Shown here piece after piece: positions 3,001 through 6,000 of a DNA stretch of 64,000 nt. Origin of the DNA: Mobula birostris. Its lineage: Eukaryota. The stretch covers positions 46,982,150 to 47,046,149 of the forward strand of contig NC_092379.1 of NCBI RefSeq assembly GCF_030028105.1, in the 5' to 3' direction. Position numbers: made by a program. Each line of letters starts with the position of its first letter. Within the stretch, counting starts at the first letter, position 1.

Positions 3001-6000
3001 GCAACAGAAGCCCATGTACTACCCTGGACAGCCTGAGGTGAGCTTGCATAACCAAAAAAAATTTTCAAGCTCCCACAGTTATAAGGGTCCCTGGTTCCTC
3101 TTTCCACAGATGCTGTGAAAGTGACTCTCTTCTAGCAATTTCTATTCTATTCCACATTCCAGCAGCTGCAGTTTTATTTAGGATCAATAAAAAGGCCTGG
3201 CCAGATACATTTGTGGTACATTTATCTAATATTTAGGAGGCCATTCAATGCACTGAGTCTATACCAGTTATCAGAGCAATCCCATCTCCCCACTTGTTTC
3301 CCTGCAACCACTTCTCTTAGAGACGTCGTCATCTCCACCCAGATTCTCCTATCACCCATCTATGTTAGGGGTAATTTACAGTAGCCAATTTACCTACTTT
3401 CTGCCAGCCAGTGGTGTAGTGGCATCCGCACTGGACTTTGAGGTGAGTGGTCCCGGGTTCGAACCTGGCTGGCTCCTTGCACGTTTTCCACCTGGGCTGG
3501 GTTGAGCGTCGAGCTAGTTAACTCGGTCTCGTTAAAAAAAAGACAAAACTGGTAAAGAAGCGGAAAGGTTGCCGCCGATGTGACACAAAGGCGTGGAAAG
3601 GAGCAACAACAACTTGCCTACTTTGGGATACAGGAGGAAATTAGAGTACCTGGGGGAAATCCACATGAAATGGATAAATTCCATGTGGCATTGCAGGCCA
3701 AAATCAAACACGGCTTGCTGGAGCCGTGAAGCAGCACTGCACCGTGCTGCCCCTTTTATTTTTGGATTTAAAGACTTTAAAGAGCTTTGCAACAAAATCA
3801 GTTTAATGTCAGTAACACAATGCATCATCACATATCCAACTGGGAGCCTCCCATTTTATACTCCCACCCACCCTCCAGCATTGGTAAACACATCATTTTG
3901 ACCCCTCAACACAGATCACAGTTCAGCAGCACGAGATAGGAGCCAATCCTTGTCAACTACCCCACCTATTGAACATGCACACAGGTACAAGTGGAACACG
4001 TCCAAAACTGCCAACGGGCACCATGTCACAGGCCGATGGTGTATGATCTGCCAGTAGGGTTGTGGATGGCAGAACACTCTGGCGAGGTCACTGCCCACTC
4101 ATACCACACCTTCTTGGGATTGGCACACCTCCAGAAGCGGGCACACACCGTCTCCCCTGCCTTCACAGGAATGGGTTGCTTCAGGGGGAAGAGGATGGGG
4201 AACCAGGAGTACATGCCCGGGGAGTGAGTCTCTGGGCGGATGCTCAGCGTCACCTCCTTGTACAGAGTGGTCTCAAAGTAGCCGGCAAACCCGTGCAGCA
4301 CAGTATTCAGCTTGATGTCAAACTCCAGGCACTTGTAGCGGTTGTTGTTGAAGACACCCCTGTTAGGGTGTGTGAAAGTGAAGCAGGGCTGAGGAGCAGC
4401 CAGCTGGTGGAAATTGTGCAGTCGAACCACATAGGGCATTTCAAACTGAGCCTCCGGGTCGCGGTCCTTCTCTCTGCTGGCGCGCACCTCGTTGTAAAGC
4501 TTGGACGAGGAGATGGGAGCGAGGAAAGAGGTGTACTGGCTGGGTATGCTTACTCCATCCTCCTTCAGGAACCTCTGCGCTCCATCCAAGCATTCTGGCG
4601 ACAGCTCGTTGTCTCCAAAGGAGCCCAGCAGCTCGCTAACGATGATGTCTGCCTTCACGGGCGCCTGCCAGTCCCTCATATCAGAGGAGACCACTGTCAC
4701 CTGGTCCCCCCACTCCTCATACTTCCAGTTCTGAAGCGTGACGACAGCATTGATGTTCTTCTCAATGGCGAACACTTTAATCTTCCGGTCAGCCTGTCGG
4801 GCAGCTCGCAGAGAGGCATTGACCAGGGGGCCCCGGCCCGCTCCCAGAACCATCAGGATATGAACGTTTGTGTCCTTCTCACTCTCCGGGATCCTGTCCA
4901 GCAGACACCTGTAGACAGCCTGTTGGTACTGCGAGTATTTGATCGGGTCTTTCTCGAAAATCTCGTAGGTCTGAGACTCCAAGTTATCCATGAGGGGCTG
5001 TAACGGGCACTGCAGGTAGTCTTCGTATCCCTTGGCGTAGGTTTCGTACGAGTTGGGCGGGGGTCGGTGCTGGTTGAGATATTCGAGGTACTGCAGGTAA
5101 GAGCGGAACTCCTTATCCGAGTGACGGTTTGACCCAGTGATCACGAACTGCACCTCCAGCTTGAAGAACCGGTAGATCAGGTTCTGATGCATCTTGGACA
5201 GGACGGGGAAGCCCTTCTTGTTGGTCAGGAAGATGCTGGTGGGCAGCACGGCCGCCTTGATGGGCTCCCCGAGCCAGCGGTCGATGACAGCGTCGGACGG
5301 CAGATCTGGCCCGACCTCGAGGGCCAGCGCGATCCTCTTGTTGTAGTCGCACAAGGAGCGGAAATGGTGCCACCACAGCCAGGTCGTCTCCTCCTCGCTG
5401 CAGTCCTCCGAGCGCACCACCGGGTCATTCTCTACTAGGTCCTCCCGCATGTCCTCCCAGGAGATGAGCGGCACCCGGATCCAGAAGATCGTGGAGTGGT
5501 GTCCGGTCAGCAGGTGGTTGATCAGCACCCTTGCCAAGTTACTGTTGTTCATCTGCTGCAGCGGCAGTAGGAACGCGGGGACACCGAGGTAGGCCGCAAA
5601 GTTCAGCTCCTGCAGCAGGGCCTCTTCCGAGTTTCTCCTCACCTGCTCGTCCTCTGAGTCCGCCTGTATCCATGGCGACAGCTTGCCCACGATGAGCGTG
5701 TTCCAGTCCCGGCCAGACAGCAACAGATCGGAGCGGGTCAGGGCCGCCGGCCGGTCCTTAGCCGGCCCCGCGCAGAACTCCCTCCTGAAGCGGGGGTGCA
5801 CGATGGGCATGCAGAGGAAATCGAATCCCTGCCCACCCGCTGTACCTAGGCTCTCCCCGACGTCTGGAACTGCATTCACATCGCGACCACTCGACACACG
5901 CGTCCCTGCCGCCATCTTCAACCGGAGGAGTTGCTTGGTGGCGTAGTCCGCCAATAAACAGCGGGGGTCGGCTCAAATCCTACCAATCAACGACGAGAGA

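What the first reader, a model, noticed from the sequence alone, without database searches (positions are those of the whole stretch)
4026..5915. Intact, intronless PRMT5
Seen: one uninterrupted 629-codon ORF with the SAM-binding motif, double-E loop and terminal TIGL intact, plus its own CpG promoter and polyA signal. Known: human PRMT5 is multi-exon (17 exons). Inference: a functional retrogene, either an extra paralog or a replacement of the ancestral spliced gene, inside a ZNF/TE cluster. No polyA remnant or TSD is visible, consistent with an old event.
Basis: partly seen in the sequence, partly recalled or inferred. Interest (0 to 1): 0.7.

Follow-up and report, generated by a model that had tools for sequence, protein, structure and literature searches.

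The report
Intronless PRMT5 gene of a ray
This ray genome carries its arginine methyltransferase PRMT5 as one unbroken coding block with its own promoter, most likely an old mRNA-derived copy that replaced the normal spliced gene in rays and skates.

Summary
Window 4026..5915 (-) is one uninterrupted 629-codon ORF. It has all three PRMT5 domains at full length and aligns end to end with solved human PRMT5. The catalytic residues are intact. A CpG island covers the promoter and the 5' part of the gene, and two polyA signals follow the stop.

The window is not human. The protein is 99% identical to stingray and devil-ray PRMT5 and sits in a 12-member cluster with 629-aa PRMT5 from 8 named batoids of 4 orders.

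Shark and bony-vertebrate models show isoform or partial-model breaks at seven or more sites that are continuous here. That points to a spliced ancestor.

No second batoid PRMT5 appeared in the two listings of 120 best hits. The batoid branch is short. My best reading is a functional, sole-copy "orphan" retrogene dating to the batoid stem.

Not shown: retroposition itself (no polyA tail, no target-site duplication), intron absence in other batoids, loss of the parent, expression, and dN/dS. No eukaryote genome collection was available. This is a new member of a known kind, of moderate interest.

The parts
4026..5915 (-). PRMT5 coding sequence, 629 codons plus TGA, with no interruption
   Evidence: GC3 is 0.787 against 0.51-0.54 in the two ZNF ORFs of the window.
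5916..6400 (-). 5' leader and presumed promoter inside a CpG island. Four exact inverted CCAAT boxes (ATTGG on the gene strand) start at + strand 5951, 5983, 6068 and 6127. The start context is gaagATGg.
   Evidence: CpG o/e is 0.95-1.17 in 5801-6400. Four boxes in 250 nt is the densest spot of the window (the maximum elsewhere is 3, and the window holds 144 in all), which is only weakly beyond chance. The transcription start is not mapped.
5001..6400 (.). Core of the CpG-rich, GC-rich island covering the promoter and the 5' half of the coding sequence
   Evidence: CpG o/e is 0.71-1.17 here. It is 0.58-0.69 at 4401-5000 and 0.30-0.41 at 4001-4400. By fifths of the CDS it runs 0.85, 0.72, 0.78, 0.67, 0.33.
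3741..4025 (-). Presumed 3' UTR with polyA signals ATTAAA (3807-3802) and AATAAA (3760-3755). No A-tract follows.
   Evidence: The cleavage site is inferred, not mapped.

Best explanation
This is the working PRMT5 gene of a ray (Batoidea, closest to Myliobatiformes).

The protein is a canonical type II arginine methyltransferase. It has an N-terminal TIM barrel (the MEP50/WDR77-binding part in human), a Rossmann SAM-binding catalytic domain with the double-E loop and the Phe that enforces symmetric dimethylation, and a C-terminal beta-barrel for dimerisation. It should make symmetric dimethyl-arginine on histones and Sm proteins as in other vertebrates. This is inferred from conservation.

The gene's coding region has no introns. 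The most likely history is as follows. In the stem lineage of rays and skates, after the split from sharks, a spliced PRMT5 mRNA was reverse-transcribed and inserted. The copy acquired or carried along a CpG-island, CCAAT-box promoter. It took over, and the multi-exon parent was lost. That makes it an 'orphan' retrogene.

Shown here: the ORF, its domains and residues, the CpG island, the polyA signals, conservation across batoid proteins, and exon boundaries in non-batoid models at sites that are continuous here.

Inferred: retroposition, its timing, loss of the parent, and promoter use.
For: - ORF and domains.
- The protein aligns 2-629 to residues 9-637 of human PRMT5 at 1199 bits with a single 1-residue gap.
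- Catalytic and substrate-tunnel residues are conserved (with passages of PMC8539453).
- The window protein lies in a 90%-identity cluster of 12. Its members are the window itself, 8 named batoids of 4 orders (all 629 aa) and 3 unnamed (orders).
- Identity to the window is 95-99% in 8 of 8 named batoids, with no indel. Sharks are at 88-91% and bony vertebrates at 76-77%.
- Batoids form one clade (support 99/97). The stem is 0.04 and tip paths are about 0.001-0.03. This is no longer than the shark paths, so there was no relaxation after the event.
- Spliced ancestry:
  - Two shark partial models begin at the same residue, W71.
  - Catshark isoform X2 begins at internal Met36.
  - Mustelus PRMT5 is split into partial models on separate contigs of 16.8 and 36.5 kb.
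  - Bichir has a 25-aa insert exactly at R69|D70.
  - A frog isoform skips A99-P118.
  - A tilapia isoform skips about 131-187.
  - Pike isoforms diverge at S558|I559.
  - All these sites are continuous in the window DNA.
- Only copy: 0 further batoid clusters in the best 120 of 4544 near-length hits, and 0 batoid fragments in the best 120 of 1593 shorter hits.
- Long-term germline-active promoter: the CpG o/e gradient runs from 1.17 upstream to 0.30 at the 3' end.
- New genomic setting: only zinc-finger and reverse-transcriptase ORFs lie around it.
- The kind is known: orphan retrogenes under strong purifying selection (abstract of PMC3548309).
Against: - The retroposition hallmarks are missing. 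There is no polyA tract and no target-site duplication of 10 nt or more.
- The upstream CCAAT-rich CpG island could equally be the ancestral promoter, which would favour intron loss in place.
- The window shows 58 kb on one side of the gene but only 4 kb on the other. The Pfam scan of single ORFs has low power for short exons, so ancestral neighbours could be missed.
- I could not see the exon structure of any other batoid, shark or chimaera gene. No eukaryote genome collection was on hand.
- The 'no second copy' result rests on annotated proteins and on two lists cut at 120 rows. Partial copies of roughly 345-520 aa could fall below the cut, and 6 of the 120 rows are unnamed and were not examined.
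- Hemitrygon akajei carries two accession numbers for the identical protein and the name 'PRMT5-like'. That could mean two transcripts with spliced UTRs, or two loci.
- Expression and dN/dS were not tested.
Confidence: 0.55

Rival explanations
1. Intron loss in place. The ancestral PRMT5 locus lost all its coding introns at once by recombination with a reverse-transcribed copy of its own mRNA. It kept its original promoter and position, and no duplication or parent loss was involved.
For: - There is no polyA tail and no target-site duplication.
- A housekeeping-type CpG island with four inverted CCAAT boxes lies directly upstream. From recall, not from a call, the human PRMT5 promoter is said to be driven by NF-Y at CCAAT boxes. 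The listing did not surface that paper.
- There is one copy per batoid species.
- The batoid stem shows no rate change.
Against: - Simultaneous loss of every coding intron of a many-exon gene in place is rare in vertebrates (general knowledge).
- Seven or more inferred sites are all gone.
- The surroundings seen are zinc-finger genes and LINE fragments. None of the neighbours recalled from the human PRMT5 region was seen, but the power of that scan is low.
- In a copy of this age the hallmarks of retroposition would have decayed anyway.
Confidence: 0.25
2. Extra paralog. This is a functional retrocopy that coexists with a still-present multi-exon PRMT5 elsewhere in the genome. The parent was missed here because it is unannotated, fragmented or below the list cut-offs.
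For: - Hemitrygon akajei's protein is named 'PRMT5-like' and has two accession numbers.
- Both lists show only 120 rows.
- Retrocopies with living parents are reported in a shark (passages of 10.1101/2024.09.09.611499).
Against: - In 7 of the 8 named batoids the 629-aa protein is named plainly as PRMT5.
- No other batoid PRMT5 cluster or fragment appears in either list, although shark fragments of 177-197 aa do.
- Conservation is as tight as expected for a sole essential copy.
Confidence: 0.12
3. Not a real gene structure. It would be cDNA contamination, a mis-assembly, or a young unexpressed processed pseudogene that happens to be still open.
For: The GC content of the gene (0.584) differs from every other 2-kb window (0.379-0.476). 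No expression data were available.
Against: - The ORF is flanked on both sides by non-coding genomic sequence with a CpG-island gradient that continues 480 nt upstream of the ATG.
- The record that holds this protein is a contig of 148.7 Mb.
- The chance of an open frame of this length is 2.8e-10.
- The protein sits on a very short branch inside the species-like batoid tree.
- A young copy should still show its A-tail and target-site duplication, and none is present.
Confidence: 0.03

Closest known systems
Vertebrate PRMT5 (human PRMT5, PDB 4gqb; Xenopus laevis PRMT5/Hsl7, PDB 4g56)
   Same: Same three-domain protein. It aligns end to end at 1199 bits to human and 1159 bits to Xenopus. BLASTP identity to mammalian and amphibian clusters is about 76-78%. 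The SAM motif, double-E loop, F327, L312 and W579 equivalents and the C-terminus are conserved.
   Different: The coding region is uninterrupted. Other jawed vertebrates show isoform or partial-model breaks at R69|D70, E98|A99, P118|L119, about 130|131, about 187|188, 197|198, 452|453 and S558|I559 in window numbering. The N-terminus is 8 residues shorter than human, and there is one 1-residue gap near residue 520.
[quoted passage not shown] 2013, PMC3548309, abstract read)
   Same: It is an intronless copy of an otherwise multi-exon, essential gene. It is apparently the only copy, lineage-specific, and under strong purifying selection rather than relaxed.
   Different: Loss of the parent and a changed locus are not demonstrated here. 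The clade (rays and skates) and the gene (PRMT5) are not among cases I found in print (listings only).
Single-exon retrocopies reported in the Greenland shark (OPTN, PLEKHA1, LRAT, WAPAL; preprint 10.1101/2024.09.09.611499, passages read)
   Same: These are elasmobranch single-exon copies of multi-exon genes in LINE-rich surroundings. LINE reverse-transcriptase fragments are also present in this window.
   Different: Those are extra, species-specific duplicates with the ancestral copy present. This one looks like the sole copy shared by a whole superorder.

Membership tests
PRMT5 (type II protein arginine methyltransferase) | TIM-barrel, Rossmann methyltransferase and C-terminal beta-barrel domains in that order | tested here: met
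   PF17285 at 30-282 (270 bits), PF05185 at 290-457 (249 bits) and PF17286 at 460-627 (204 bits). All are far above their cut-offs and cover the full profile.
PRMT5 (type II protein arginine methyltransferase) | SAM-binding glycine motif and the two catalytic glutamates of the double-E loop (human E435, E444) | tested here: met
   GAGRGP 358-363, E428 and E437 align to the human residues. All are invariant in 17 of 17 sequences. Their roles come from passages of PMC8539453.
PRMT5 (type II protein arginine methyltransferase) | The Phe that sets symmetric dimethylation (human F327) and the substrate tunnel residues L312 and W579 | tested here: met
   F320, L305 and W571 align to them and are invariant in alignment A1.
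PRMT5 (type II protein arginine methyltransferase) | Symmetric dimethyl-arginine activity and a complex with MEP50/WDR77 | not testable with these tools
   No assay was possible. No complex prediction was run, because at about 78% identity to the solved human complex a pass would only reflect likeness.
Processed retrocopy / retrogene | Lacks the introns of the source gene | tested here: met
   Eight inferred exon boundaries from shark, frog, tilapia, pike and bichir protein models fall inside the continuous ORF. The full parental exon map could not be fetched.
Processed retrocopy / retrogene | A polyA tract at the 3' end | tested here: not met
   The longest A run downstream is 5 nt, inside the AATAAA region. 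This is expected to decay in an old copy, so it weakens the proof but not the plausibility.
Processed retrocopy / retrogene | Flanking target-site duplications | tested here: not met
   There were 0 shared words of 10 nt or more between 5916-6500 and 3401-4025. One 9-mer was shared, against 1.27 expected from shuffles.
Processed retrocopy / retrogene | Sits at a locus other than that of the source gene | tested here: inconclusive
   Only C2H2 zinc-finger and reverse-transcriptase ORFs were found among 326 ORFs. Short exons of ancestral neighbours could be missed, and only 4 kb is visible on one side.
Orphan retrogene (parent replaced) | No parental multi-exon copy left in the genome | tested here: inconclusive
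   There were 0 additional batoid PRMT5 clusters or fragments in the two 120-row listings, and one sequence per named species in the cluster. No genome search was possible.
Orphan retrogene (parent replaced) | Purifying selection on the copy | tested here: met
   At the protein level only. Identity is 95-99% with no indel across 4 batoid orders, and branches are short. dN/dS was not computed for lack of orthologous DNA.
Orphan retrogene (parent replaced) | Transcribed | not testable with these tools
   The evidence is indirect only. There is a CpG-island gradient. Skate-like full-length ORFs sit on unnamed assembled contigs of 2.1-2.95 kb, about the predicted mRNA size, but whether those contigs are RNA or DNA is unknown.

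The most novel reading that the evidence does not exclude
All rays and skates have run for the whole life of the clade on a retro-copied, intron-free PRMT5 as their only copy. PRMT5 methylates Sm proteins and tunes splicing of weak or detained introns (recalled knowledge). Shedding all its own introns would have uncoupled the enzyme's expression from the splicing machinery it regulates. That would be a rewired feedback loop in one vertebrate superorder, not just a change of gene structure.
Probability: 0.1. Interest if true: 0.6.

Novelty: new member of a known kind. Interest (0 to 1): 0.4.

Why it matters
PRMT5 is an essential housekeeping enzyme and a drug target, and it is multi-exon in other vertebrates. 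If a whole superorder of vertebrates depends on an mRNA-derived copy, that adds an old, clade-wide case of parent replacement by a retrogene outside mammals.

It would give a clean synapomorphy for Batoidea. It would also offer a natural experiment on what regulation is lost or rebuilt when a gene loses its introns and possibly its promoter.

It is also a caution for retrocopy surveys. A pipeline that needs an annotated parental gene in the same genome, as described in the methods passages of PMC13320880, cannot flag such orphans.

The protein itself is ordinary.

Tried and rejected
- Target-site duplication and A-tail search: nothing beyond chance.
- Tandem-repeat origin of the CCAAT array: Tandem Repeats Finder (TRF) found nothing in the promoter.
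- Window-internal repeats around the gene: none between about 3300 and 8009. TE boundaries next to the gene could therefore not be set from the window alone.
- Rfam and tRNA scans of the whole window: 0 and 0.
- Search for ancestral neighbours by Pfam on 326 single ORFs: only zinc fingers, reverse transcriptase, ALKBH8_N and weak noise. The LIM-domain rows (one ORF in each of two batches, E 3e-4 and 4e-5) I take, without having checked it, to be the cysteine-rich zinc-finger ORF of each batch.
- CCAAT-box density: highest in the window, but 4 against a maximum of 3 elsewhere is not convincing alone.
- Literature: 'PRMT5' with 'intronless' (48 papers), 'retrogene' (9), 'elasmobranch' (2) and 'single-exon' (17), and 'retrogene' with 'elasmobranch' (7). 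Judged from listings, titles and abstract starts, none describes an intronless PRMT5.
- One search was badly posed (any 2 of 6 terms) and gives no evidence.
- One search did not surface the recalled NF-Y/PRMT5 promoter paper.
- Not run: structure or complex prediction (78% identity to solved structures makes them uninformative), the third homology search, the representatives search and the protein atlas.
- Rejected: a human origin of the contig. The window protein is 99% identical to ray proteins against about 77-78% for the mammalian clusters.
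Full report
**1. What is there**

On the minus strand, window 5915 down to 4026 is a single ATG-to-TGA frame of 629 codons. It is the longest stop-free run of the whole 64 kb: 648 codons stop to stop, against 383 for the next, a zinc-finger ORF. With the ORF's own base composition, the chance of 629 codons staying open is 2.8e-10.

The 2-kb window that holds it has GC 0.584. The other 31 windows lie between 0.379 and 0.476. The window contains no N.

**2. What the protein is**

Pfam finds PRMT5_TIM (30-282), PRMT5 (290-457) and PRMT5_C (460-627), each over the full profile and far above its cut-off. A fourth match, TRM5/TYW2, is below its cut-off.

Against the PDB, the protein aligns from residue 2 to 629 with residues 9-637 of human PRMT5 (4gqb and others, 1199 bits). 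The only gap is a single residue. It scores 1159 bits with Xenopus PRMT5.

From that alignment, the window residues and their human equivalents are:
- GAGRGP 358-363
- E385 (human E392)
- D412/M413
- the double-E pair E428/E437 (human E435/E444)
- F320 (F327)
- L305 (L312)
- W571 (W579)

The roles of L312, F327, W579, E435 and E444, and of the three domains, are taken from passages of the review PMC8539453. The roles of E392 and D419/M420 are recalled.

**3. Whose gene it is**

The contig is not human. The best database hit is 99% identical, named 'PRMT5-like' in Hemitrygon akajei. Mammalian clusters are at about 77-78%.

The exact window protein is already in NCBI and UniRef, on a contig of 148.7 Mb. 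It belongs to a 90%-identity cluster of 12:
- the window protein itself
- one 629-aa protein from each of 8 named batoids: Hemitrygon, Hypanus, Mobula, Pristis, Narcine, Leucoraja, Amblyraja and Rhinoraja
- three unnamed assembled sequences

Four of those species were looked up and fall in four orders: Myliobatiformes, Rhinopristiformes, Torpediniformes and Rajiformes.

In alignment A1, the 8 named batoids are 99, 99, 99, 97, 96, 95, 95 and 95% identical to the window protein, with no indel. Four shark sequences are 88-91% and three bony vertebrates 76-77% identical.

I did not try to name the window's species. By the tree, its nearest named relative is Mobula hypostoma.

**4. Evidence that the ancestor was spliced**

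I had no eukaryote genome collection. Exon maps therefore could not be fetched.

Protein models give indirect but consistent evidence.

Sharks:
- The partial models of Pristiophorus and Heterodontus both begin at exactly W71.
- Catshark isoform X2 and the S. torazame model begin at internal Met36.
- Mustelus asterias PRMT5 exists only as partial models on separate contigs of 16.8 and 36.5 kb. One ends at L197 and one starts at D453.

Bony vertebrates:
- A bichir model has a 25-residue Phe-rich insert exactly between R69 and D70.
- Hyla isoform X2 lacks A99-P118.
- A tilapia isoform lacks about 131-187.
- Two pike isoforms diverge at S558|I559.

That makes eight inferred boundaries. The window DNA runs straight through the four I printed and, being one open frame, through the others too.

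**5. Gene signals around the ORF**

CpG observed/expected along the region:

| Interval | CpG o/e |
|---|---|
| 5801-6400 (promoter and first codons) | 0.95-1.17 |
| 5001-5800 | 0.71-0.94 |
| 4401-5000 | 0.58-0.69 |
| 4001-4400 | 0.30-0.41 |
| window mean | 0.32 |

By fifths of the coding sequence the values are 0.85, 0.72, 0.78, 0.67 and 0.33. Such a 5'-anchored gradient is what long-term lack of germline methylation at an active promoter produces. This is an inference.

GC3 is 0.787, against 0.54 and 0.51 in the two neighbouring zinc-finger ORFs.

Four exact inverted CCAAT boxes lie within 220 nt upstream of the ATG. This is the densest 250-nt stretch of the window, but 4 against a maximum of 3 elsewhere, with 144 sites in all, is weak on its own. 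No tandem repeat underlies them.

The start context is gaagATGg.

ATTAAA and AATAAA lie 218 and 265 nt after the stop. No A-tract follows. No direct repeat of 10 nt or more links the two flanks. One 9-mer is shared, against 1.27 expected.

**6. Surroundings**

Long ORFs in the rest of the window are two C2H2 zinc-finger arrays, at 23646-24797 (+) and 41949-42743 (-), and several reverse-transcriptase fragments.

To look for exons of other genes, I scanned every stop-to-stop ORF of 60 aa or more outside PRMT5 (326 ORFs) one by one against Pfam. Results:
- 2 zinc-finger ORFs
- 5 RVT_1 ORFs
- 3 ALKBH8_N ORFs
- weak side matches that I take to come from the cysteine-rich zinc-finger ORFs

The possible upstream exons of the zinc-finger genes were left unjoined.

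The scan has low power for short exons, and only 4 kb is visible downstream of the gene. 'Not in the ancestral neighbourhood' is therefore suggested, not shown. The neighbours I would expect (HAUS4, RBM23, AJUBA in human) are recalled, not checked.

**7. One copy or two**

Among 4544 near-length hits (best 120 listed), the chondrichthyan rows are the batoid cluster and three shark clusters. There is no second batoid cluster. Six of the 120 rows are unnamed, at 68-78% identity, and were not examined.

Among 1593 shorter hits (best 120 listed), the only chondrichthyan rows are the two Mustelus fragments. There are 0 batoid fragments.

Blind spots:
- unannotated loci
- partial copies of roughly 345-520 aa that would score below the cut
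- the oddity that Hemitrygon's identical protein has two accession numbers and the suffix '-like'

**8. Rate of evolution**

The tree used 22 sequences. I left out the mammalian representative P0007 and the unnamed sequences. It puts the 9 batoid sequences in one clade (support 99/97), with a stem of 0.04 and paths of about 0.001-0.03 below it. The shark side has a stem of 0.019 and paths of about 0.05-0.08.

There is thus no acceleration after the structural change, and the internal order of batoids looks like a species tree with one gene per species. With the absence of any indel in 9 of 9 sequences, this is strong protein-level evidence of purifying selection. dN/dS could not be computed because no orthologous DNA was available.

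**9. Hints of transcription**

Three unnamed, skate-like cluster members are full-length ORFs on assembled contigs of 2105, 2110 and 2953 nt. That is close to the roughly 2.2-2.3 kb mRNA predicted from the window.

One has a 10-residue upstream extension ending in ..LLWLK-M, where the window reads ..LLRLK-M upstream of its ATG. Part of the leader therefore seems shared.

Whether these contigs are RNA or DNA is unknown. Either way they fit a compact gene, but they prove neither expression nor intron absence.

**10. Interpretation**

The gene is a functional PRMT5 with an intronless coding region. Very probably it is the only PRMT5 of rays and skates.

The best-supported history is retroposition in the batoid stem followed by loss of the spliced parent. 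This is an orphan retrogene in the sense of PMC3548309, whose abstract also reports unusually strong purifying selection on such genes.

The main rival is loss of all introns in place by recombination with a cDNA. That would explain the missing hallmarks and the housekeeping-type promoter equally well. Synteny would settle it.

An extra-paralog reading and an artefact reading are unlikely, for the reasons given under the rivals.

**11. Novelty**

Orphan retrogenes are a known kind, and single-exon retrocopies are reported in a shark. I found no paper that describes an intronless PRMT5 or PRMT5 in elasmobranchs in this sense (judged from listings and abstract starts only).

RefSeq already annotates the protein in 8 named batoids and in the window's own genome. 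The structure is therefore visible in public annotation even if unremarked.

A large retrocopy survey describes a method that needs an annotated parent in the same genome, and its text does not mention PRMT5.

Verdict: real, ordinary as a protein, and moderately interesting as a clade-wide replacement of an essential spliced gene.

Noticed in passing
window 23646-24797 (+) and 41949-42743 (-): Two long C2H2 zinc-finger ORFs (383 and 264 aa stop to stop) on opposite strands. Their finger units appear as 84- and 168-nt tandem periods. Any upstream exons were not looked for or joined.
   Followed up: partly
window 17323-18666 (+), 39481-40017 (-), 54871-55500 (-), 59132-60041 (-), and 8009-8794: There are fragments of LINE-type reverse transcriptase (5 ORFs match RVT_1 and 3 match ALKBH8_N). 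The element at 8009-8794 has 4 diverged copies elsewhere in the window at 69-80% identity.
   Followed up: partly
window about 3395-3750: Directly after the AATAAA signal there is sequence that reads like a tRNA-derived SINE of elasmobranchs. It has a CpG-rich block at 3401-3600 (GC 0.55, CpG o/e 0.83). The family resemblance is recalled only. ARAGORN and Rfam call nothing here.
   Followed up: partly
window 33712-33951 and 48640-48952: Two clean minisatellites: 40-nt unit x 6.0 copies (94% matches) and 32-nt unit x 9.8 copies (97% matches).
   Followed up: no
window 26001-30000 and 38001-42000: Strong strand asymmetry. GC skew is +0.31 to +0.32 with AT skew +0.13 to +0.15 at 26-30 kb, and GC skew is -0.28 to -0.30 with AT skew -0.13 to -0.14 at 38-42 kb. 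ORFs at 26.9-28.8 kb are proline- and serine-rich and of low complexity. These may be inverted copies of one repeat family.
   Followed up: no
cluster of the window protein: Hemitrygon akajei's identical-length protein carries two RefSeq accession numbers and is the only one named 'PRMT5-like'. This could reflect two transcript models or two loci in that species.
   Followed up: no
listing: No chimaera PRMT5 appears among the best 120 near-length hits, and the only shark PRMT5 models there come from four species in three genera. Several shark models are partial, which fits a long, hard-to-assemble spliced gene in sharks.
   Followed up: no
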